A DNA stretch of 39,382 nucleotides from a virus (taxonomy: Duplodnaviria > Heunggongvirae > Uroviricota > Caudoviricetes), in the IMG/VR virus record IMGVR_UViG_2923296884_000001. One strand, given 5' to 3'. This document shows positions 1,599 to 29,705 of this stretch, piece by piece. Each line of letters opens with the position of its first letter. Positions within the stretch are counted from its first letter, which is position 1. The position numbers and the translations under genes are program-made. The notes beneath the pieces are model-generated. The model searched no databases and was not told the origin of the DNA. It saw only the letters and a program-made list of their open reading frames with translations.

Positions 1599-1739
1599 TT
1601 ACTGCTTACACTGTAAGAACGCCGCAAACTCCGCTCCCCAGAAGCTCATCCGTATTTCACACAGCGAACCGTGTAGCATCCAGATGATGAGGATTACCGT
1701 CACGCAGAACGTGATGGCCGTAAGCGATTTTTGCGACAT
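1599..1739 (-). CDS. Hok/Gef-family type I toxin homologue (46 aa; below the ORF-track size cut-off)
   Basis: Minus-strand ORF with SD AAAGGAG ~8 nt before the ATG at 1739; translation MSQKSLTAITFCVTVILIIWMLHGSLCEIRMSFWGAEFAAFLQCKQ has an N-terminal TM helix plus the SLCEIR and VAAF-type motifs conserved in Hok/Gef; a perfect palindrome (GACGGGGAAG-ttgc-CTTCCCCGTC, 1566-1589) follows the stop. Confidence 0.55.
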   Translation of the reverse strand: MSQKSLTAITFCVTVILIIWMLHGSLCEIRMSFWGAEFAAFLQCKQ

Positions 1740-2233: not shown

Positions 2234-3343
2234 TCACTCTGTTTCTGCTATCCATTCCGGGATTTTTGCCTCAAGCTCAAGCTGCGTGGTAAAGCCGCTG
2301 TTATCGATGGTGTGCTCGGCTTTTGCAATAATCCAGTCCTGATTATCAATCTCGCTTTTAAATCCTGTTACCGTGCCATGCATTTCGGGGTAGAGTTCTG
2401 CACGTCCACGCGCCAGCGTGATGGAGAATGATGCGGCTCCGCGTTGTAGTTGCTGCCACTTTGCCGCCGCTGCGCGTCTTGCTGCCTGCTCGTTCTGATA
2501 AGTCTTGCGTAACACAAACACATTGCCTTCCGCGCCTTCCATATAATCACCTTCACGGCTGCTGCTTTTCTCCTTTTTGGGTTTTGGCGGTTTACGGCGT
2601 TTCACGCTGACTTTTTTCTTTTTCCCGTAATTAAGATCAAGCCAGTAAGCGCGTACCCCCGTATACGCTTCGCGGTCAGCAATGCGGAACTGATGGCGAT
2701 CGCCGCTGCTGCGTGTGATGGCAAACGATGGCAACGGCTGGCCCTGTGCGTTCACGCCACCGCCGGGCATGATGAATAACAGATTACCGCTTTTTACCGT
2801 GGTGATTGCGCCCAGCATTTCTGCCATGCGCGTAAGGAAGGACATGTCGCTTTCTTCGGTCTGGTCGGCGTGGTCGATTTCGATATCCATCAGCATTTCG
2901 CTGATTTGCGGTTTCAGACCATACCGATGAGCGATGGCGGATACCACACGCTCAACGGTCACATCATGCCAGGACACCTCACGTTTAACGTTAAATTCAT
3001 CCCGAAAATCTGCGCTTCTGGCTGAAACAGTCAGCCTGTCCGGCGGTCCTTCGTGAGCGATTTCATCAACAATGTAAGTGCCTTTTTCTGTCAGCGGTTC
3101 TCCTTTCCAGCCAATGAGAACCGTCAGGCGCGCGCCCCGTGGCGGTAGCTGCAACTGACCATCCGCATCATCCAGCGTGATGGTGAGCTGGTCCGCGTCA
3201 AATCCCCGGTTGTCGGTCAGTGACAGGCTCATCAGGCGCTCTGCCACGCCTGACAGCGTTTTACCCTCCGCGAGAATATCAAAATCCGGCATTTTTACGG
3301 GGTCTGTGCCCTGACTGAGCAATTGCATGGTGGTGTCGGTCAT
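2234..3343 (-). CDS. D: tail protein D (late control gene D)
   Basis: ORF 2234..3475 matches P2 gpD along its length; start refined to the ATG at 3343 (MTDTTMQLL...) preceded by a GGGAGGGAG SD. Confidence 0.9.
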   Translation of the reverse strand: MTDTTMQLLSQGTDPVKMPDFDILAEGKTLSGVAERLMSLSLTDNRGFDADQLTITLDDADGQLQLPPRGARLTVLIGWKGEPLTEKGTYIVDEIAHEGPPDRLTVSARSADFRDEFNVKREVSWHDVTVERVVSAIAHRYGLKPQISEMLMDIEIDHADQTEESDMSFLTRMAEMLGAITTVKSGNLLFIMPGGGVNAQGQPLPSFAITRSSGDRHQFRIADREAYTGVRAYWLDLNYGKKKKVSVKRRKPPKPKKEKSSSREGDYMEGAEGNVFVLRKTYQNEQAARRAAAAKWQQLQRGAASFSITLARGRAELYPEMHGTVTGFKSEIDNQDWIIAKAEHTIDNSGFTTQLELEAKIPEWIAETE

Positions 3344-3500
3344 CTGCTCCCTCCCTGTGCGGCATGGTCGCATGTGCGTGCGGAGGGGGTTACTGCTTTT
3401 TGTTGTCGCCGTGGCGGGAGAACGGCGCAGGGGTGAGATTACGCGCGTGGTGGGTGATGATTGTTGCTGAATCATTTAACGGATACAAGGGGCTAAAGCT
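3344..3500. promoter_or_regulatory. divergent intergenic region between D and FI; candidate late promoter(s)
   Basis: 157-bp gap between divergent D and FI starts; contains TTGTTGT-N-AGAACGG, a motif also present upstream of P at 22975-23004. Confidence 0.4.
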
Positions 3501-4685
3501 ATGAGTGAAACTCGTTTTCATGGTGCCCGTGTTACGGAAAGTACCGACCTGGTAACAGCGATTAACGATGTTGATTCCAGCGTTATCGGTATCGTGGCAA
3601 CGGCGGATGATGCGGACGCGAAGCTGTTCCCGCTGAACAAGCCCACACTGCTGACCCGCGTCAATGACGTGCTGGGAAAATGCGGGACAACGGGGACGCT
3701 TTATCGTGCGCTTAAGGCCATCGCAGACCAGGTGAGCACAAAGGTGATCGTCGTTCGCGTGGCTGAACACAAAGAAGAAAACGGAAAGACGCAGGATCAA
3801 CTGGTTATCGGTGGTTCTGAATCTGACGGCAGCTATACGGGGATGTATGCGCTGCTTGTTGCAGAGCAGGATGAAAGCATCGGATACCGTCCGCGTATTC
3901 TGGCCGCGCCGGAGCTGGACACGGAGGCGGTGACAAAATCCCTGTGCGTGATTGCGGGTAAAGTGCGCGCGTTTGTGTATGCCACATGTCATGGTTGTAA
4001 CACGATGGCTGAGGCGATTACCTACCGCCAGAAATTCAACGAACGTGAGGTGATGCTCTTATGGCCTGACTTCATCGCCTACAACCCGAAAAGTGGCAAA
4101 AACGAAACGTTCCCCGCGCCTGCTTATGCGTGCGGCCTTCGTGCGTACATTGACCATGAGCAGGGCTGGCACAAATCGCTGTCCAACGTTCCGGTTAAAA
4201 ATGTGCTGGGGATGTCCAGGCATGTGTTCTGGTCGTTACAGGCCGAAGACAGTGATGCCAACAGCCTCAACAACAAAGAAATCACGACCATTATTCGTCG
4301 TAACGGGTTCCGCTTCTGGGGCAACCGCACACCGGAAACGAACGCCTACATCTTTGAGGTGTATACCCGAACCGCACAGGTGCTGGCTGATTCAATTGCG
4401 GAAGCGCAGTTTGAAACCATCGACAGTCCACTGACACCTGCGAACGTGAAGGATGTTATCAGCGCCATCAGAGCAAAACTGGATTCGCTGGTTACTGTCG
4501 GGAAACTGATTGGTGCGGAGTGCTGGTATGACGTGGTGGATAACAGCACCACGGGTTTACGTCAGGGGCGTGTGCGTATTCGCTACAAATATACGCCTGT
4601 TCCCCCGCTGGAAGACATGGAGCTTTACCAGTCGTTTACTGATGAATTCTTTGGTCCCGCATTTGCGGTGCTGGGAGGTGCCTGA
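3501..4685 (+). CDS. FI: tail sheath protein
   Basis: 394-aa ORF with sheath-protein features and P2 gpFI similarity; followed by the tube gene with ATGA overlap. Confidence 0.93.
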   Translation: MSETRFHGARVTESTDLVTAINDVDSSVIGIVATADDADAKLFPLNKPTLLTRVNDVLGKCGTTGTLYRALKAIADQVSTKVIVVRVAEHKEENGKTQDQLVIGGSESDGSYTGMYALLVAEQDESIGYRPRILAAPELDTEAVTKSLCVIAGKVRAFVYATCHGCNTMAEAITYRQKFNEREVMLLWPDFIAYNPKSGKNETFPAPAYACGLRAYIDHEQGWHKSLSNVPVKNVLGMSRHVFWSLQAEDSDANSLNNKEITTIIRRNGFRFWGNRTPETNAYIFEVYTRTAQVLADSIAEAQFETIDSPLTPANVKDVISAIRAKLDSLVTVGKLIGAECWYDVVDNSTTGLRQGRVRIRYKYTPVPPLEDMELYQSFTDEFFGPAFAVLGGA

Positions 4686-5252: not shown

Positions 5253-5627
5253 ATGAAAGATATCGATACTGAAACCCGGAATAACACCGTAGCGGATGAT
5301 GTGACGGCAGGTGAGGATATGGCTGTCGAACGTGGTGTAAAACTTTCCCGGCCAATTGAGCGTGGTGGCGAAAAAATCACATATGTGGAGATCACCGGGG
5401 CTATTGAGCAGGCGGGATCCCTGCGTGGTCTGTCGCTGTCTGATGTGCTGAATCTGAAAGCGGATACCATGTTCACGCTGTTGCCTCGCGTGACCTCGCC
5501 ACGACTGGATGAAGTGATGATTAAAAAAATGTCGTCACGCGATTTTATTCGGTTGTGCGCTGTGGCTGTAAATTTTATGAGCGAGCCAGACTCTGGCGCG
5601 AAGAGCGTGCAGGAGACGGCAGCGTAA
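5253..5627 (+). CDS. E: tail assembly chaperone E
   Basis: 124-aa ORF in the conserved position between tube and tape-measure genes, with an overlapping -1 frame ORF as in P2 E/E'. Confidence 0.85.
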   Translation: MKDIDTETRNNTVADDVTAGEDMAVERGVKLSRPIERGGEKITYVEITGAIEQAGSLRGLSLSDVLNLKADTMFTLLPRVTSPRLDEVMIKKMSSRDFIRLCAVAVNFMSEPDSGAKSVQETAA

Positions 5628-5791
5628 TCACCCTGGTGTGCTTTGAGCACATCGAAGATCTGGTGGCGGATATTGCCGCCATTTTTAACTGGTCGCCCGC
5701 CGAAATCTTCATGATGACGCCCGGCGAAGTGGTTAGCTGGCGTGAGCGGGCGGCACTTCGCAGCGGGAATGCAGATAATGAAGACTCTTGA
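5555..5791 (+). CDS. E': E' extension (-1 frame) of the E+E' frameshift product; true junction lies upstream, about 5525-5555
   Basis: -1 frame ORF overlapping the 3' end of E and the 5' end of T; an A7 run at 5523-5529 sits where the -1 frame opens (stop at 5522-5524 in that frame). Confidence 0.65.
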   Translation: MRCGCKFYERARLWREERAGDGSVITLVCFEHIEDLVADIAAIFNWSPAEIFMMTPGEVVSWRERAALRSGNADNEDS

Positions 5792-9093: not shown

Positions 9094-9123
9094 AAAACCG
9101 CTAATGGTCAGATTAGCGGTTTT
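9094..9123. terminator. palindromic hairpin between convergent U and invertase genes (bidirectional terminator candidate)
   Basis: AAAACCGCTAAT-ggtcag-ATTAGCGGTTTT perfect 12-bp inverted repeat, A-run on one side and T-run on the other; overlaps the invertase stop codon. Confidence 0.5.
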
Positions 9124-9712
9124 CATTTTCCTGAGTCTGCCTGGTTGTTTCTTCAGCCTGTATATCGCCTACAGGGTGATAACGATAAATCGTCGATATG
9201 CCGATGTCGTAAATGATCGCCAGTTGTTTCCTGTCATGACCGTTTTTAATCAGCCTCGCTATTTGCTCGTGTTGTTCTTTTGTCAACTTCGGGCGACGTC
9301 CGCCAATGCGTCCTTGTGCGCGTGCTGCTGCCAGCCCGGCCAGTGTACGCTCTACAATTAATTCACGTTCCATTTCGGCTAAAGCCCCCATGACGTGAAA
9401 AAAGAAACGCCCCATGGGTGTTGATGTGTCAATGCTGTCCGTCAGACTACGGAAATTAACACCTTTTTCCCGCAATTCCTCAATAAGCGTGATCAGGTGT
9501 TTCATACTTCTGCCCAGTCTGTCCAGCTTCCAGACAACCAGCGTATCTCCTTCTGATAGCGTTCTGAGCAGTTTTTTCAATCCCGGTCTGGTTGATTTCG
9601 TTCCGCTGATTTTATCTTCAAAAATCAGTTCACATCCTGCGCAGTTCAGTGCATTGCGTTGTAAATCCGTGTTCTGGTCGTTTGTTGACACACGAATATA
9701 GCCAATTTGCAT
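9113..9712 (-). CDS. serine-recombinase DNA invertase (Hin/Gin/Cin/Pin family)
   Basis: Translation from the ATG at 9712, MQIGYIRVSTNDQNTDLQRNAL..., carries the catalytic serine (GYIRVSTNDQ) and a C-terminal HTH; lies right next to an inverted-repeat-flanked tail-fibre segment. Confidence 0.93.
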   Translation of the reverse strand: MQIGYIRVSTNDQNTDLQRNALNCAGCELIFEDKISGTKSTRPGLKKLLRTLSEGDTLVVWKLDRLGRSMKHLITLIEELREKGVNFRSLTDSIDTSTPMGRFFFHVMGALAEMERELIVERTLAGLAAARAQGRIGGRRPKLTKEQHEQIARLIKNGHDRKQLAIIYDIGISTIYRYHPVGDIQAEETTRQTQENENR

Positions 9713-9726
9713 AAAAAACATCCTCT

Positions 9727-10245
9727 TTGTTTCGTGAAAAATACAGAGTTGGTATAGGTAGGGATAAAAACGAAAACGTTGGTTTAGGAGAAGGCTCGGC
9801 GCTACCCGTTGGTGTGCCTGTTCCGTGGCCCACTGCCACACCGCCAGCAGGCTGGTTACAGTGCAACGGAGCTACGTTCACCAAAGAACAATATCCTGTT
9901 CTGGCCAGAGTCTACCCGACCCTCCGTCTTCCCGATTTGCGCGGTGAGTTTATCCGTGGATGGGACGGTGGTCGCAAGGTTGATACCGGGCGTACGGTAC
10001 TTTCATTTCAGGAAGGGACTATCGTATCCGGTTTTGATGATAATAATACCGGAGATATCAGTTCGCTCGGCTCTACACAATACGGATTTGGTGACGCTTT
10101 AACCTCTAATCAACTGGGGGTCATAAATGGCAAAAAGTGGATATTTGATGCATCCTCTAAAGGTGCACAAAGATATGACTGGTGGGCTTATGTATCAGCT
10201 CGCCCCCGCAATATCGCATTTAACTATATCGTGAGGGCGGCGTGA
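9727..10245 (+). CDS. alternative tail-fibre C-terminal cassette (Hv'), promoterless in the current orientation
   Basis: Opens inside the left inverted repeat with no plausible start of its own (ORF-track start is a TTG); ends ...RPRNIAFNYIVRAA, matching the conserved P2-type fibre C-terminus. Confidence 0.8.
   Translation: MFREKYRVGIGRDKNENVGLGEGSALPVGVPVPWPTATPPAGWLQCNGATFTKEQYPVLARVYPTLRLPDLRGEFIRGWDGGRKVDTGRTVLSFQEGTIVSGFDDNNTGDISSLGSTQYGFGDALTSNQLGVINGKKWIFDASSKGAQRYDWWAYVSARPRNIAFNYIVRAA
9765..9790. other. gix/hix-like crossover site (left)
   Basis: Reverse complement TTCTCCTAAACCAACGTTTTCGTTTT shares its first 17 nt with the right-hand site; resembles the 26-bp gix architecture with AAACC half-sites. 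Confidence 0.5.
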
Positions 10246-10251
10246 TACCGT

Positions 10252-10866
10252 TCAACTGGCAAGTGCCAGTGGTGCTTCCGGCCAGATGATTTCAGGTGCC
10301 GTGCTGATATCCAGTGCGTTCAGCTCGTCGATATAATCCAGCACGGCGTTCAGTTTTGCCGTTTCTTCTGGTGTCAGACTGCGACCAGCACGCAGTTTGA
10401 GGTTGATAAGATCGACGGACGCCATCGCCTGTTTCACCCGTTGCTGGCGTTGCTGTCTGGCAACCTCCAGTTCTGCGGTTCGCTGCCGTTCAGTATCGGT
10501 TACCCACGCCTCACCGTTCCAGGTATCCCATGGCGTGGCTGGCTGTTTTGTGGTGGTGTCCGCCGGGTAATCACCCGGTTGGGTAATCAGAACGGGGTTA
10601 CCGTTCTCCGTGCTGTATACCGTCTCGCCGCGGTGATCAGGCACATGCTCCCACCCGTTCAGCGTGGCAGTCCGGCAAACCACGTAACCCGAAATTGCCT
10701 CCGGCGGTGCATCGGCGCACGAATGTGCCGGAGTACCCACCCCAAGGGCGAGATACTCCACAGAGGATGAGGTGTATTCCCGGGTTTCCTCGTCATAGTG
10801 ATATACAGTGATATCGCCCGCTACAGTGGCGATACCGTTTTCATCCAGAACTGCAGTGTTACTCAT
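10252..10866 (-). CDS. tail fibre assembly chaperone (Tfa / P2 gpG-like)
   Basis: 204-aa ORF translationally coupled (TAATG) to the upstream fibre C-terminal ORF; variable N-terminal half and conserved C-terminal half typical of Tfa proteins. Confidence 0.85.
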   Translation of the reverse strand: MSNTAVLDENGIATVAGDITVYHYDEETREYTSSSVEYLALGVGTPAHSCADAPPEAISGYVVCRTATLNGWEHVPDHRGETVYSTENGNPVLITQPGDYPADTTTKQPATPWDTWNGEAWVTDTERQRTAELEVARQQRQQRVKQAMASVDLINLKLRAGRSLTPEETAKLNAVLDYIDELNALDISTAPEIIWPEAPLALAS

Positions 10867-11108
10867 TAAACTGCCCTCACAATGTAATTAAGTGCAATGC
10901 TACGGGGTCTGACAGTGATACCCTTCGCATACCCGCTTCTGATAGAGGTCAGAATAGTAGCCTGCATACCATTGTCTGACATTGCTATGACAGGATCGCT
11001 GAATGTTGTCCCGTCCGGCATTTTAAAGCTGCCCTCACGAAGGTCTGTAATGGAATCTTCATTGTTGAATCCCATGCCGACTATCCCGAGGTTCCCGTAG
11101 TGTCCTGG
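10866..11108 (-). pseudogene. distal part of the currently fused fibre C-terminus, in a different frame from H (frameshifted end)
   Basis: This frame is open from 11108 and ends ...RPRSIALNYIVRAV, the conserved fibre terminus, while the H frame stops at 11081; the two frames overlap at 11081-11108. Confidence 0.5.
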
Positions 11109-12688
11109 TTATAATAATCCAGCATTGCTGTTCTTAACAGCGTTGCCCCTTGTGCGGACAGCAACTTACGTCCTGTATCAACTTTGCGCCCGTCGTCCCA
11201 TCCACGGATAAACTCACCGCGTAAATCGGGAAGACGGAGGGTCGGGTAGGCTCTGGCCAGAACAGGATATTGTTCTTTTGTAAAGGCGCGCCCGTCGCAC
11301 TTTAACCAGCCTGCTGGCGGTGTGGCGGTGGGCCACGGAACAGGCACACCAACGGGTAGCGCCGAGCCTTCTCCTAAACCAAGGTAATTGAGGACATCTT
11401 TTATACTGCCCTTAGCGATAATAGCGCGACCAATAGCTGTAAGGGTTGCCAGCGCTGCGCGGTCTGCTCCGGTAAAATAAGGCAACCGATCTGCTGCAGT
11501 GGCAAGTCCTGCCAGAGCAGTGAGCGTGGCATCTGCCGGTTGTTTTCCGTTTGCCAGATCGTATGCAGCCTTGACCGCTTTCGGTGTGGCGGCCAGTATT
11601 TCAGACGTGCTGTTGGTGGCGCTACTGAGTTGAACAAGGCCTTTTCGTGCCGTAGTCGCATCCTGAGCGGTATATTTCCCGTTAGCCAGGTCATATGCAG
11701 CCTTAACCGCTTTCGGTGTTGCGGCCAGCGTTTCAGAGGTGCTGTTGGTGGCGCTACTGAGTTGAACAAGGCCTTTTCGTGCCGTAGTCGCATCCTGAGC
11801 GGTATATTTCCCGTTAGCCAGGTCATATGCAGCCTTAACCGCTTTCGGTGTTGCGGCCAGCGTTTCAGAGGTGCTGTTGGTGGCGCTACTGAGTTGAACA
11901 AGGCCTTTTCGTGCCGTAGTCGCATCCTGAGCGGTATATTTCCCGTTAGCCAGGTCATATGCAGCCTTAACCGCTTTCGGTGTGGCGGCCAGCGTTTCAG
12001 AGGTGCTGTTGGTGGCGCTACTGAGTTGAACAAGGCCTTTTCGTGCCGTAGTCGCATCCTGAGCGGTATATTTCCCGTTAGCCAGGTCATATGCATCCTT
12101 AACCGCTTTCGGTGTTGCGGCCAGCGTTTCAGAGGTGCTGTTGGTGGCGCTGCTAAGTTGAACAAAGCCTTTTGCGGTCAGCGAGGCGTCCGGGTGACGT
12201 CGTGACTGCTCGTGCTCTGATATTTTATCATCCACATATTTGCGGGTTGCCAGAACCACAGACGGGTCGATTTTCAGCGTGATGGCTTCGGTGTTCGTGA
12301 CAACCAGAATCATGCGGATAGTCTGGGTGCGTCCACTGCCTTCCTGCAACTGCGGTTTGTACGTTTCCGGGCAGTTTGCCACCGCAATGAGTACACCTTT
12401 ATCATCATAAAGACCAATCTCACGGATCCAGAATCCTCCCTCGCTTTCAGGGATGATTTGCTCCGCAATAATCTGGCTCTGATTGTTAGGGTCAACACTC
12501 AGAAGATTCAGCGGTGCAATGCGTTTCTGGTTAATCAGTTTTGTTTGTGCAGGGTCTGGTGTTGGTAACACACCATTTGCATCACCAACGGCCATTCGCG
12601 TCAGATTCAGCTTACTGCCGAGCATCGTCGCGTTAGCCAGTCGTGCCGCGCCCTGATTAGTCAGAATGGCGTAGTATTTCACTGTCAT
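11081..12688 (-). CDS. H: tail fibre protein H (constant part plus currently fused variable end)
   Basis: 535-aa ORF with a P2 gpH-like N-terminus, five tandem 44-aa repeats, and a C-terminal region that enters the right inverted repeat. Confidence 0.9.
   Translation of the reverse strand: MTVKYYAILTNQGAARLANATMLGSKLNLTRMAVGDANGVLPTPDPAQTKLINQKRIAPLNLLSVDPNNQSQIIAEQIIPESEGGFWIREIGLYDDKGVLIAVANCPETYKPQLQEGSGRTQTIRMILVVTNTEAITLKIDPSVVLATRKYVDDKISEHEQSRRHPDASLTAKGFVQLSSATNSTSETLAATPKAVKDAYDLANGKYTAQDATTARKGLVQLSSATNSTSETLAATPKAVKAAYDLANGKYTAQDATTARKGLVQLSSATNSTSETLAATPKAVKAAYDLANGKYTAQDATTARKGLVQLSSATNSTSETLAATPKAVKAAYDLANGKYTAQDATTARKGLVQLSSATNSTSEILAATPKAVKAAYDLANGKQPADATLTALAGLATAADRLPYFTGADRAALATLTAIGRAIIAKGSIKDVLNYLGLGEGSALPVGVPVPWPTATPPAGWLKCDGRAFTKEQYPVLARAYPTLRLPDLRGEFIRGWDDGRKVDTGRKLLSAQGATLLRTAMLDYYNQDTTGTSG
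11369..11394. other. gix/hix-like crossover site (right)
   Basis: TTCTCCTAAACCAAGGTAATTGAGGA: imperfect dyad of 12-bp half-sites around a central AA, at the outer edge of the right inverted repeat. Confidence 0.5.
11510..12170 (-). repeat. five tandem copies of a 132-bp (44-aa) coding repeat inside H
   Basis: Near-identical 132-bp units at about 11640, 11772, 11904 and 12036 plus a more diverged flanking copy; encode LVQLSSATNSTSETLAATPKAVKAAYDLANGKYTAQDATTARKG. Confidence 0.85.
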
Positions 12689-16229: not shown

Positions 16230-18107
16230 TTATGCTGCGGGATTATTGATTTCCAGCACCAGGCTGCCGATATCGACGCCATACGTTGCATTTTTGGTAA
16301 TATCCGTCAGCGTCAGTGCATTCAGCCCCAGTGTCAGACTGTCTTTTATGACCTGGAATGCCGGGCCAACCAGTCCATTCAGTTTCGGAGTAACCGTGGC
16401 ACTGCCGGCGGTGAACACCAGCTCCAGCGTCTGCCAGTCGTTACTGTAATTCCCGAACTCGCCCAACTTTGTGTTTCCGGCTTTCTTGTGATGCATCAGA
16501 TTCAGTTTGCCGTCTGTGGTCTGGGTGAAGAACGACATCAGGAACGGGTTACCAGTCCCGGTCATCGCCACGACGTCAGGTAACGCTACATCGGTATACA
16601 GATAAATTCCCAGACCGAACTGGTTGTTGGTCAGTGCGCCTGACAGTCGAAACTTACAGCTCAGTCTGCCACCCCGTGTCAGCAGGGAGACTGCGTCATC
16701 CACCGGGCGCGTCAGGGACCAGGCTTTATTGCTCTGCTTGGCGATCTTAAATACACCATCTGACAACTGAATTCCGCCATTCTTAATGCTCCAGCCCTGC
16801 GCAGCAGCATCTCCGGCTGTCGGCAACAGGGAGATTGTGCGTACGGATGCATCTTCAGACGGCCCCGATGGCGTGTCGCCGCCGGGCGAGGGTTTGATTT
16901 CCGGTGCCTTACCACTGATGAAGGCTGAGGTGCGCCCGGCTGCGTTCAGAATAGCGGTTGCCATACGATCCGGAATAATGCTCCTGCGCGCCCATGAACT
17001 GAAATGTGTCGGGCGGTTTGATGATACCCAATTACCATTACTACGGGATTGCGCGCCGTAATAACCTGCATCAGCAATATCCGGGTCTTCTGCCGGTAAG
17101 TTGGTGGGCGTGTTGTTGCCGTTACCGTCGGTCATGAACGGCACAAAGAAAACGTTGTCGCTCTCCCTGTTTTTGTACGCGCCGTAGACGGAGTCATACT
17201 GTGTGCCGTATGTGTTTTTCCAGTAATACGTCGTGTCGCCACAAATCCACGGTACAACTGCAGCACTGCCGCCATGGCACTGCGCGTTAAATCCGGAAAG
17301 GTCAGTACGGAACTGCTTCAGCATGGCCGTGAACAGGTCCGGTTGCTGTGCGTAGGTGGCAGCGCTCATGTCAAATTCGCCCTGCATCCAGCACACCGCC
17401 AGCAACACATTTTTCGGGTTCTTCTGTAATGCCGCTTTGGTGCGTGCGATCAGGTCCTGATATAACGGTTTACCCACACCCCAGCGTGCCGAATCCTGGC
17501 TGGCCCCCGTGTCCGCACTGAATGTCCCCTCCGCGCCCTGGGTGAATGCCGAACCACCACGACAGCATGGTACCAGCAGGATCCCCGCGTTATTCGGGAT
17601 ATACGGAAGCAGTTTTTTGGCAATATGTAAGCCCTGGCCGACACAGCCGTACTGCCCTTTGCTCAGGTCTGCCTTCGGATGATTCAGTGCGCTCATATCC
17701 TGAACATCATGCAGGCAGTGGTCTGCCGGAATGATGTCGTTAAATGCGCATGCTTTACCACCGGGAGTCACTGTGTTGCGACGGGCCAGTTGCTTAATGC
17801 GTGGGTGGGGCGCATCGTAAGAATCCGGCAGCGGCATTCCCTCACCATATGACATGGCATTGGATTGACCAGCAAGTACCACCACGTAATACCACTCCGG
17901 CACGCTGCCGTGCTGGGGGGAATCAGGTGAGATGTCTGTAGTGCCATCGGCCACCATTGCCTGCATTAGATACCACGGGGTGCCGGGTTCGTAGGCAACC
18001 CGCGTCTCCCCCTGAAGATGCCACCCTTTCGCAAGATGTTCATTCACCTTTTGAGTCAGTTCAGCCTGTGTCATGGCTGTAATCAGTGCAAAGTTCTTAC
18101 TGGTCAT
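16230..18107 (-). CDS. SASA-domain carbohydrate esterase (sialate O-acetylesterase-like, NanS-p-like), 625 aa
   Basis: Contains VVVLAGQSNAMSYGEG (GQSN motif) and WMQGEFD, typical of the SASA esterase family, plus a ~300-aa C-terminal domain; start overlaps the o-spanin stop (ATGA). Confidence 0.75.
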   Translation of the reverse strand: MTSKNFALITAMTQAELTQKVNEHLAKGWHLQGETRVAYEPGTPWYLMQAMVADGTTDISPDSPQHGSVPEWYYVVVLAGQSNAMSYGEGMPLPDSYDAPHPRIKQLARRNTVTPGGKACAFNDIIPADHCLHDVQDMSALNHPKADLSKGQYGCVGQGLHIAKKLLPYIPNNAGILLVPCCRGGSAFTQGAEGTFSADTGASQDSARWGVGKPLYQDLIARTKAALQKNPKNVLLAVCWMQGEFDMSAATYAQQPDLFTAMLKQFRTDLSGFNAQCHGGSAAVVPWICGDTTYYWKNTYGTQYDSVYGAYKNRESDNVFFVPFMTDGNGNNTPTNLPAEDPDIADAGYYGAQSRSNGNWVSSNRPTHFSSWARRSIIPDRMATAILNAAGRTSAFISGKAPEIKPSPGGDTPSGPSEDASVRTISLLPTAGDAAAQGWSIKNGGIQLSDGVFKIAKQSNKAWSLTRPVDDAVSLLTRGGRLSCKFRLSGALTNNQFGLGIYLYTDVALPDVVAMTGTGNPFLMSFFTQTTDGKLNLMHHKKAGNTKLGEFGNYSNDWQTLELVFTAGSATVTPKLNGLVGPAFQVIKDSLTLGLNALTLTDITKNATYGVDIGSLVLEINNPAA

Positions 18108-18415
18108 TGTGTTACTCCCGTCTGGTGTGTCAGTTCGGCTATTCTCTTATCCAGTTCAGCAATGGCCCGTTTATCCGCGTTACAGGTTTCCAGTGCATCC
18201 AGAAGGCGGTCGCCCCATATTCCGAGGTTTCCCCATGTGGGTGGGTCAGGGAAGGGGGGAGGCGTTACCGGCATGGTCAGCGTCTGCGGTATAAGCCGGA
18301 CTGACGGCGCTGGCCCTGGCGCGTTCTGCGTGCCTGCGCAACCTGTCAGTAAAACGAGCGTCAGGCAAAGCGTGGGCGCATTCATCTTTTGCAATATCGT
18401 TGCGTAGCTGTTCAC
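18104..18415 (-). CDS. o-spanin (Rz1/LysC-like outer-membrane lipoprotein)
   Basis: Signal peptide with lipobox LLTGC, proline-rich mature part (PVTPPPFPDPPTW); ORF lies in another frame overlapping the 3' half of the i-spanin gene; start at 18415 or 18385. Confidence 0.65.
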   Translation of the reverse strand: MNSYATILQKMNAPTLCLTLVLLTGCAGTQNAPGPAPSVRLIPQTLTMPVTPPPFPDPPTWGNLGIWGDRLLDALETCNADKRAIAELDKRIAELTHQTGVTQ

Positions 18416-28398: not shown

Positions 28399-28710
28399 TT
28401 ATTCGGGAAATAACGCCCGGATATTTCCGGCCATCTGACTGGTTATCTGTGCGGCTGATACTGGCTGTGACGCGGGGCGTTCTGTCCTGGTTTGTGTCAT
28501 TGATAACGCCTCATCATCAGCCCATGCAGCCAGTCGGTAAGCCTCTGCCGGATTCATTTTCAGTAGTGCCAGCCCGGCCAGAAAAGCCACGCGTTGACCA
28601 CTTTTGCGGGCTTCTGGTGTAAGGCTGTCCAGCCAGGCGCATGCTTCGCCTTCGTTCTTGACGGCGGCGGGCTTCAGATAGAAACTTATCCGTCTGGTTG
28701 GTGTCGTCAT
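28399..28710 (-). CDS. parR: ParR-like partition adaptor (103 aa)
   Basis: ATG at 28710 four nt after the parM stop, SD AAGGAG; N-terminus ISFYLKPAAVKN...VAFLAGLALL resembles plasmid R1 ParR (IAFKLNPDVN...AALTAGLALY). Confidence 0.7.
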   Translation of the reverse strand: MTTPTRRISFYLKPAAVKNEGEACAWLDSLTPEARKSGQRVAFLAGLALLKMNPAEAYRLAAWADDEALSMTQTRTERPASQPVSAAQITSQMAGNIRALFPE

Positions 28711-28714
28711 TGGT

Positions 28715-29674
28715 TTACTCCTTGTCCATTGCGTACAGCCCATTAACCAGAGCAAACTGTGGCACCCCGTCCGCGATGAAAGTCGCATTAACTCCGCAGG
28801 CTTCGCGGATAGCGGGTGCCACAATCTCTGCCCCGCCACCGACAACCATCACCCGCCCGTAACCCGAAAAACCCGCCAGCGCGCGGATCACGCGTTGTTT
28901 CAGTGTTTCTTCCTTTTCACGAATAACCGCCATCAGGCTGGCGTAATGCGCGTCATTGTGGATGTGCTGGCGCAGCCAGGCTTCATCATGGCGATGTTCG
29001 ATAATGGTATTGGCGATGTGGTGACTGGTACGCATACCGTTAGTGGCCATCACCGACAGTACGGCATCGGCCATCAGGGAAACGCCTACGTGTGGATCGC
29101 AAAACACCTGGCTGATACCTGCCAGTTGTCCCTGAACCTTTGCCACATCCAGCGTGGTTCCGCCTAAATCCACAATCAGCAGGGATTCAAACGGACTCAT
29201 GTCAGCCAGTGCCTTAAAGCCAGCCGGAATGGATTCAGGCATAACCCGCACGTTACGGATAGTGAATGCTTCGCCGTTCTGGTACTCCACCGGGCGCATA
29301 ACGTTCGCTTTTTTGCGGTTGATGTTGGCCATGTCCGGCTGTGCGTTTGTGTCGAAATACTCGCTCAGTGGCAGGGTGACAACCACATCCACCTCCTGTG
29401 GCGTGATGCCTGATTTGACCAGCGCGTGATGAATGGCGATTACATTCACATCGCTGTACTGGTATTGCGTGTCGGTCGTCTGGACAAAGCGATCGCTAAC
29501 CGGATCAAAACCATAGCGCACGCCATCAAGCATGTAGTTCGCGGGCTGCATGCCACCGAACGGCGCAGACCATTCCGACTTGAAGCTGTTCGGGCTGATG
29601 GCGTTGCGGCGTTCGCCATTCTCAGTCCATGCCAGCTTGATGTTGGTGGAGCCGTCGTCGATACAAATTTTCAT
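28715..29674 (-). CDS. parM: ParM/StbA actin-like segregation ATPase
   Basis: 319 aa; MKICIDDGSTNIKLAW... with full-length similarity to plasmid R1 ParM (phosphate-1 motif DDGSTNIKL, VMPESIPAG, LIVDLGGTTLD, VVGGGAE). Confidence 0.9.
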   Translation of the reverse strand: MKICIDDGSTNIKLAWTENGERRNAISPNSFKSEWSAPFGGMQPANYMLDGVRYGFDPVSDRFVQTTDTQYQYSDVNVIAIHHALVKSGITPQEVDVVVTLPLSEYFDTNAQPDMANINRKKANVMRPVEYQNGEAFTIRNVRVMPESIPAGFKALADMSPFESLLIVDLGGTTLDVAKVQGQLAGISQVFCDPHVGVSLMADAVLSVMATNGMRTSHHIANTIIEHRHDEAWLRQHIHNDAHYASLMAVIREKEETLKQRVIRALAGFSGYGRVMVVGGGAEIVAPAIREACGVNATFIADGVPQFALVNGLYAMDKE

Positions 29675-29705
29675 GTCGCTTTTCCTTATGTTGATTAATT
29701 AATCG

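What the first reader, a model, noticed from the sequence alone, without database searches (positions are those of the whole stretch)
10866..11111. The currently fused fibre C-terminus is split by a frameshift
The H reading frame stops at 11081 after ...DTTGTSG, while another frame, open from 11108, continues for 78 codons and ends ...SIALNYIVRAV, the conserved fibre terminus also seen on the alternative cassette (...NIAFNYIVRAA). Either the variant in the expressed orientation is inactivated, a translational frameshift is used, or this is a sequencing error in a repeat-rich gene.
Basis: seen in the sequence. Interest (0 to 1): 0.5.

Follow-up and report, generated by a model that had tools for sequence, protein, structure and literature searches.

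The report
One-base deletion splits prophage tail fibre
The tail-fibre gene of this E. coli prophage is split because one G is missing from a GGGG run that is intact in nearly all related prophages, so it is an ordinary sequencing error or fresh knockout mutation, not a programmed frameshift.

Summary
The minus-strand P2-H-type tail-fibre ORF (12688..11081, 535 aa) stops after ...DTTGTSG. The -1 frame, open from 11108 to 10866, encodes the rest of the fibre and ends ...SIALNYIVRAV.

The cause is one missing base in a homopolymer. The window has CCC at 11085-11087 (GGG on the coding strand) where relatives have four. Adding one base restores a 607-aa ORF whose last 171 aa match the silent cassette of the same prophage in E. 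coli U15A.

U15A is identical to the window over all ~37.8 kb outside the invertible segment, which it carries in the other orientation. Of 597 complete E. coli records with this region, 589 carry the exact GGGG 81-mer. Only strain G749 shares GGG, together with three other G/C-run deletions within 270 nt.

The GGG allele is absent from IMG/VR, JGI metagenomes and GTDB representatives. There is no slippery heptamer, no stimulatory RNA structure and no conservation of the split, so programmed frameshifting is rejected.

The choice is between a consensus error and a very recent null mutation, and only reads can decide. Low interest.

The parts
11085..11087 (-). Site of the lesion: CCC on the + strand (GGG on the coding strand), where relatives have four bases. 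This is a one-base deletion in a homopolymer.
   Evidence: Alignments with strain 1450, EC958, U15A and Logan contig L013. Adding one C restores a 607-aa ORF.
11081..12688 (-). Truncated tail-fibre ORF (P2 gene H type), 535 aa. It has the Phage_tail_fib N-terminal domain, five Phage_fiber_2 repeats and a Collar domain (aa 447-494). It stops prematurely at TAG 11083-11081.
10866..11108 (-). The -1 frame remnant, 80 codons plus stop. From Ile (ATA, 11083-11081) onward it encodes the last 72 aa of the intact fibre, ending SIALNYIVRAV. An internal ATG lies at 11075.
10252..10866 (-). Tail-fibre assembly (chaperone) gene, 204 aa. Its ATG overlaps the stop of the intact fibre frame (TAATG).
   Evidence: Pfam Caudo_TAP; annotation in relatives.
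9778..10245 (+). Alternative, currently silent fibre C-terminal cassette. It has a Collar domain, ends NIAFNYIVRAA, and appears intact.
   Evidence: It is fused to the constant part in U15A.
9776..10004 (.). Left arm of the 229-nt inverted repeat. The crossover site is about 9767-9792, with core TT at 9779-9780.
11157..11385 (.). Right arm of the inverted repeat. The crossover site is about 11369-11394, with core at 11381-11382. The junction between the constant and variable parts of the fibre lies here.
9113..9712 (-). Serine DNA invertase (Resolvase N-terminal domain plus HTH_7), 199 aa.
11543..12173 (-). Tandem array of 132-nt units (4.8 copies, 96% matches) encoding the Phage_fiber_2 repeats. 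It is not the site of the frameshift.

Best explanation
The split is a non-programmed loss of one G from a GGGG run (coding strand; CCC at window 11085-11087). The run lies in the variable C-terminal cassette of a P2-H-type tail-fibre gene in a P88-like (Xuanwuvirus) prophage inserted next to serS in E. coli. The normal, near-universal state is one 607-aa ORF (...DTTGTSGIVGMGF...SIALNYIVRAV). Its stop overlaps the start of the fibre-assembly gene. As written, the gene gives a 535-aa fibre that lacks its last 72 residues. That loses the distal tip and the conserved C-terminal ...NYIVRA strand, and probably also the translational coupling to the chaperone gene. No recoding mechanism rescues it to a useful level. 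I lean slightly (about 55:45) towards a consensus or assembly error in the record rather than a genuine, very recent slippage mutation in this isolate. The sequence alone cannot separate the two. Shown: the deletion, its position, its rarity, and the intact state in relatives. Inferred: loss of function, loss of coupling, and the error-versus-mutation split.
For: (1) Alignment shows a single gap, CCTC-GGGATAG versus CCTCGGGGATAG, with everything else identical. (2) The window equals E. coli U15A at every base of about 37.8 kb outside the invertible segment. Inside the segment, which is inverted, the only difference in unique sequence is this one base. (3) The exact GGGG 81-mer is present in 589 of 597 complete E. 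coli records that hold the region, and the gene there is annotated as an intact tail fibre. The GGG 80-mer is present in one, strain G749. (4) The GGG allele is absent from IMG/VR, JGI metagenomes and GTDB representative genomes, and the 535-aa product is not on record in the large protein collection. (5) Adding one base restores 607 aa, with the last 171 aa identical to the U15A cassette. (6) An independent short-read contig in the same orientation (Logan SRR25256459, L013) has four bases at the site. (7) For the lean towards error: it is a homopolymer deletion and the only indel in 39.4 kb. It lies in an invertible segment, where cultures hold both orientations. G749 has the same deletion plus three more G/C-run deletions within 270 nt of this cassette.
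Against: Against the error reading, 167 other G/C runs of 4 or more in the window show no indel relative to U15A, so the assembly is otherwise clean. Spontaneous indels also favour homopolymers, and prophage tail genes are not under selection in a lysogen. The sequencing platform and the reads are unknown. Against complete loss of function, a -1 slip of tRNA-Gly on G_GGA before the UAG would recreate the exact wild-type sequence, so trace full-length product cannot be excluded.
Confidence: 0.9

Rival explanations
1. Genuine, very recent loss-of-function mutation. Replication slippage removed one G in this isolate's prophage, so particles made in this orientation carry a truncated, non-functional fibre. 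This is one branch of the best explanation, listed separately because reads could settle it.
For: The window is otherwise free of indels relative to U15A. There are 167 other G/C runs of 4 or more without error. Lysogens put no selection on tail genes. The window also differs from relatives by an 8-SNP patch in the left repeat arm, so it is a distinct lineage rather than a re-read of U15A.
Against: There are zero substitutions in about 37.8 kb against U15A, which implies very little time for real mutations. The allele is private to this window among about 600 records and three large collections. The only other carrier, G749, shows an error-like cluster of homopolymer deletions.
Confidence: 0.42
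2. Consensus or assembly artefact. The true sequence has GGGG and the record lost a base, possibly because reads from both orientations of the invertible segment lowered consensus quality there. This is the other branch of the best explanation.
For: It is a homopolymer deletion, the sole indel in 39.4 kb, and it lies in the 1.6-kb invertible segment. G749 shows four G/C-run deletions in the same cassette, including this one. The window's left repeat arm (9786-9816) carries the bases expected for the opposite orientation, unlike independent contigs L013 and L014, which could reflect mixed-orientation reads.
Against: Position 9834 in the same arm does not follow the mixed-read pattern, so that patch may be a real gene conversion. 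No other homopolymer errors are seen. The platform is unknown.
Confidence: 0.5
3. Translational rescue. Ribosomes slip -1 on G_GGA just before the UAG stop (a 'shifty stop'). tRNA-Gly re-pairs with GGG, the next codon read is AUA, and the exact wild-type ...TSGIVGMGF... fibre is produced in useful amounts.
For: The geometry is right. The zero-frame codons are UCG GGA UAG and the -1 frame reads CUC GGG AUA. The product would be identical to the intact protein.
Against: The split is not conserved, since 589 of 597 relatives carry the GGGG 81-mer, which reads in frame. There is no X_XXY_YYZ heptamer in the 25-nt overlap. [quoted passage not shown] There is no unusual downstream structure (z = -0.77). 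The downstream sequence is the same in in-frame relatives, so nothing has evolved to promote slippage.
Confidence: 0.04
4. Two-piece fibre. After termination at UAG (11083-11081), ribosomes reinitiate at the AUG 5 nt downstream (11075). The 69-aa C-terminal fragment they make assembles with the 535-aa piece.
For: The stop and AUG are 5 nt apart. Only three residues (IVG) would be lost between the pieces.
Against: There is no good Shine-Dalgarno sequence upstream of the AUG. No relative has this arrangement as a stable state. In one search, three of the seven loci were read at the site. Two are in-frame genes cut by a contig end, and one (L005) is split by a different deletion in the neighbouring G run. 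Trimeric fibre tips fold as one chain with chaperone help, so split assembly is unlikely (inference).
Confidence: 0.02

Closest known systems
Frameshifted pseudogene or homopolymer consensus error in a prophage tail-fibre gene
   Same: A single-base indel in a short G/C run. One inserted base restores the full ORF found in orthologues. The allele is private or nearly private.
   Different: Nothing distinguishes it from this category. The only unusual point is that a -1 slip at the stop would recreate the exact wild-type peptide.
Gin/Cin/Pin/Hin-type invertible tail-fibre (host-range) switches of Mu, P1, e14 and P2-like phages such as P88
   Same: A serine invertase next to the segment. Inverted repeats with hix/gix/cix-like crossover sites inside the fibre gene. 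A constant N-terminal part joined alternately to two C-terminal cassettes. Both orientations are seen in natural isolates (window versus U15A).
   Different: This is the context, not the finding. Here only one assembly-chaperone gene lies between the two cassettes, whereas P88 has two. The cassette in the expressed orientation is broken in this record.
Programmed -1 ribosomal frameshifts of phage tail genes (P2 E/E+E', lambda G/GT)
   Same: Two overlapping frames in a tail gene, with the downstream frame at -1.
   Different: Those sites are conserved across families and use slippery heptamers, and both products are needed. This site is not conserved, has no heptamer, and relatives read in frame.
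Phase-variable homopolymer tracts (contingency loci)
   Same: Change in the length of a G run switches a surface-recognition gene off.
   Different: The tract is only 3-4 nt long, and 589 of 597 records have the same length. There is no sign of recurrent switching.

Membership tests
Programmed -1 ribosomal frameshift site | Slippery heptamer X_XXY_YYZ, or an efficient tetramer (A_AAG, U_UUY, C_CCY), inside the frame overlap | tested here: not met
   The overlap 11084-11108 reads AAC CAG GAC ACT ACG GGA ACC TCG GGA TAG. It holds only two G_GGA tetramers, which are in the class reported as barely or not shift-prone (PMC4066793).
Programmed -1 ribosomal frameshift site | The two-frame arrangement is conserved in homologues | tested here: not met
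   589 of 597 E. coli records carry the GGGG 81-mer, which reads in frame. One shares GGG. Intact 607-aa genes are annotated in relatives.
Programmed -1 ribosomal frameshift site | Stimulatory RNA structure a few nucleotides downstream | tested here: not met
   Fold of 11110..11000 on the minus strand gives -25.7 kcal/mol, z = -0.77 against shuffles.
Frameshift pseudogene or homopolymer indel | One indel relative to intact orthologues accounts for the whole disruption | tested here: met
   There is a single gap in the alignments. Adding one C gives a 607-aa ORF with the C-terminal 171 aa identical to U15A.
Frameshift pseudogene or homopolymer indel | The indel is present in the DNA of the organism, not only in the record | not testable with these tools
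   No reads are available. The source genome is not among the searched collections.
Gin/Cin/Pin-type invertible fibre switch (context) | Adjacent serine invertase | tested here: met
   9113..9712 (-) matches Pfam Resolvase (1e-51) plus HTH_7.
Gin/Cin/Pin-type invertible fibre switch (context) | Inverted crossover sites within the fibre gene, with both orientations occurring in nature | tested here: met
   The inverted repeat is 229 nt at 90%. U15A has identical flanks with the segment inverted, and the junctions map to the TT/AA cores at 9779-9780 and 11381-11382. The resemblance to hix/gix/cix half-sites is from memory.
Gin/Cin/Pin-type invertible fibre switch (context) | Fis-dependent recombinational enhancer in the invertase gene | not tested
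   Not examined.
Phase-variable homopolymer (contingency locus) | Long tract (typically 7 nt or more) with length polymorphism among strains | tested here: not met
   The tract is 3-4 nt and length 4 is found in 589 of 597 records.

The most novel reading that the evidence does not exclude
The broken cassette is not fully dead. A low-level -1 slip of tRNA-Gly on G_GGA at the UAG 'shifty stop' recreates the exact wild-type fibre. Alternatively, termination-reinitiation at the AUG 5 nt downstream yields a complementing fragment. Either way the prophage would keep some infectivity in this orientation despite the deletion.
Probability: 0.05. Interest if true: 0.3.

Novelty: already known. Interest (0 to 1): 0.08.

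Why it matters
It matters little biologically. If real, it is a private knockout of one of two alternative receptor-binding tips of a common E. coli prophage. The phage would then depend on the invertase flipping to the other cassette. If it is an artefact, it is an annotation hazard, because the gene would be called as a pseudogene or as two ORFs. The practical use of this result is to stop the site being taken for a recoding signal. It also flags invertible segments as places where consensus errors and real variation are easily confused.

Tried and rejected
- **Programmed frameshift:** rejected on conservation, motif and RNA structure.
- **Phase-variable tract:** rejected, because the tract is too short and is invariant among strains.
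- **Indel inside the 132-nt tandem repeats:** rejected. The repeats are at 11543-12173, about 460 nt away.
- **Other carriers of the GGG allele:** none in IMG/VR, JGI metagenomes or GTDB representatives. The exact 535-aa product is not on record.
- **The 69-aa ORF as a separately called gene:** it is on record. Of the seven loci returned, I could read the site in three. L006 and L007 are contig-end truncations of in-frame genes. L005 has a different deletion, in the neighbouring GGG run.
- **A generally defective prophage:** suspected because PGAP annotates a shortened gene D in U15A. Rejected, because the window has a full-length D ORF matching P88, and the opposed orientation of the FI-U genes is the normal layout in P88.
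- **Explaining the left-arm SNP patch purely as a mixed-read polishing artefact:** only partly consistent, because position 9834 does not fit.

Full report
**Observation**

The minus strand carries a 535-aa ORF (12688..11081). It has the N-terminal domain, five fibre repeats and the Collar domain of P2-H-type tail fibres. It ends ...LDYYNQDTTGTSG at TAG 11083-11081.

The -1 frame has a stop at 11111-11109 and is then open for 80 codons to TAA 10868-10866. It reads PGHYGNLGIVGMGFNNEDS...RPRSIALNYIVRAV. The count of 78 codons is slightly low.

The other cassette (9778..10245, + strand) ends ...RPRNIAFNYIVRAA. It is 53% identical to the repaired cassette over its whole length. The same C-terminal motif also closes T4 gp37 in PDB 2xgf, though that local match is weak. 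From memory, that strand returns to the collar domain in gp37 (Bartual et al. 2010).

**Context**

The window is a complete-looking P88-like (Xuanwuvirus, P2-type) prophage between serS and its integrase. The fibre locus is a classic invertible host-range switch, with these parts:
- A serine invertase at 9113..9712 (Resolvase plus HTH_7).
- 229-nt inverted repeats at 9776-10004 and 11157-11385.
- Crossover cores at 9779-9780 and 11381-11382.
- Between the repeats, a silent cassette, a single fibre-assembly gene (10252..10866, minus strand) and the cassette now fused to the constant part.

E. coli U15A carries the same prophage with the segment in the other orientation.

**Cause of the split**

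Alignment with strains 1450 and EC958 shows one gap, CCTC-GGGATAG against CCTCGGGGATAG, and no other difference near it.

A base-by-base comparison with U15A shows no difference at all in about 37.8 kb outside the invertible region. Within the unique part of the inverted segment there is one difference, this missing base (CCC at 11085-11087 against CCCC).

Adding one C restores a 607-aa ORF. Its last 171 residues are identical to the U15A cassette, and its stop overlaps the chaperone gene's ATG.

**How common is it?**

- Of 597 complete E. coli records with this region, 589 carry the exact GGGG 81-mer.
- Only strain G749 matches the GGG 80-mer exactly.
- G749's cassette has four one-base deletions within 270 nt, all in G/C runs, and sits in a different prophage with several annotated pseudogenes.
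- The GGG allele was not found in IMG/VR, JGI metagenomes or GTDB representative genomes.
- The 535-aa product is not on record.
- An independent Logan contig in the window's orientation (L013) has four bases at the site.

**Is it programmed?**

No, on three counts:
- The split is not conserved.
- The 25-nt overlap holds no slippery heptamer, only two G_GGA tetramers. Sharma et al. 2014 (PMC4066793) place all tetramers other than A_AAG, U_UUY, C_CCY and A_AAA among motifs barely or not shift-prone, at about 0.15% without a stimulator.
- The downstream RNA folds no better than shuffles (z = -0.77).

One curiosity remains. A -1 slip of the P-site tRNA-Gly from GGA to GGG at the UAG would give exactly the wild-type peptide, so a trace of full-length fibre is conceivable. 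An AUG 5 nt after the stop could allow reinitiation of a 69-aa fragment. Both are speculative and at best incidental.

**Real mutation or artefact?**

The data cannot decide.

Points for an artefact:
- It is a homopolymer deletion and the only indel in 39.4 kb.
- It lies in a segment that exists in two orientations in a culture.
- G749 shows an error-like cluster that includes the same deletion.
- No other sample carries the allele.

Points for a real event:
- The other 167 G/C runs of 4 or more are clean relative to U15A.
- Slippage mutations also favour such runs.
- Tail genes are unselected in a lysogen.

I put it at about 55:45 for artefact.

**Consequences if real (inferred)**

The fibre would lose its distal 72 residues, including the conserved terminal strand. 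Translational coupling to the chaperone gene would be lost. Particles made in this orientation would probably not adsorb. Inversion to the other, intact cassette would still be possible.

**Verdict**

This is an ordinary single-base lesion of a known kind in a known system. It is not a recoding signal, and its interest is low.

Noticed in passing
window 9786-9816 (left repeat arm) versus 11346-11375: In the window both repeat arms are identical over offsets 10-40. U15A, once inverted, and two independent contigs in the window's orientation (L013, L014) carry eight synonymous differences there. This could be a gene-conversion patch between the arms or a consensus effect of mixed-orientation reads. 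Position 9834 does not fit the simple artefact model.
   Followed up: partly
window 9778-11380: The invertible segment holds two fibre cassettes but only one assembly-chaperone gene (10252..10866), co-oriented with the broken cassette. Phage P88 has one chaperone gene per cassette (L012 24860-25949). In the other orientation the fibre would be expressed with the chaperone gene antisense.
   Followed up: partly
L003 (E. coli G749) 3773-4039: There are four one-base deletions, all in G/C runs, within 270 nt of the same cassette in a RefSeq complete genome, and the neighbouring cassettes are annotated as frameshifted. This suggests that invertible fibre segments collect consensus errors, or decay quickly.
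   Followed up: partly
L005 (GCA_009867545.1 contig PFXW01000019.1) about 2960-3000: A different one-base deletion (ACGGGAAC to ACGGAAC) lies 12 nt upstream of the window's site. It splits the same cassette in a lambdoid-type context whose invertase gene is also split in two.
   Followed up: no
window 16231-18108 (- strand): A 625-aa DUF6645 gene sits between the lysis genes and the tail-completion genes. Phage P88 has only a short gap at the corresponding place (L012 18978-19116). It may be a cargo (moron) gene.
   Followed up: no
window 11543-12173: 4.8 tandem copies of a 132-nt unit (96% matches) encode the Phage_fiber_2 repeats of the fibre shaft. Copy number probably varies among relatives, since P88's fibre gene has a different length.
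   Followed up: no
window 5253-5791 (+ strand): The gpE and GpE-family (E') gene pair lies upstream of the tape-measure gene. This is the usual place of the conserved programmed -1 frameshift of P2-type tails. I did not locate the slippery site.
   Followed up: no
window 1599-1739 and 28400-29675: A hok/gef-type toxin gene lies next to ogr, and a ParM-type partition pair lies in the early region of this integrated P2-type prophage. P88 shares these features.
   Followed up: no
L004 (U15A) 2234-3087 versus window 2234-3475: RefSeq annotates gene D of U15A as a shortened 266-aa protein plus a partial ORF. The identical DNA in the window has a full-length D ORF that matches P88 D, apart from a 2-residue PP insertion and one substitution. 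This is an annotation quirk, not a defect.
   Followed up: yes
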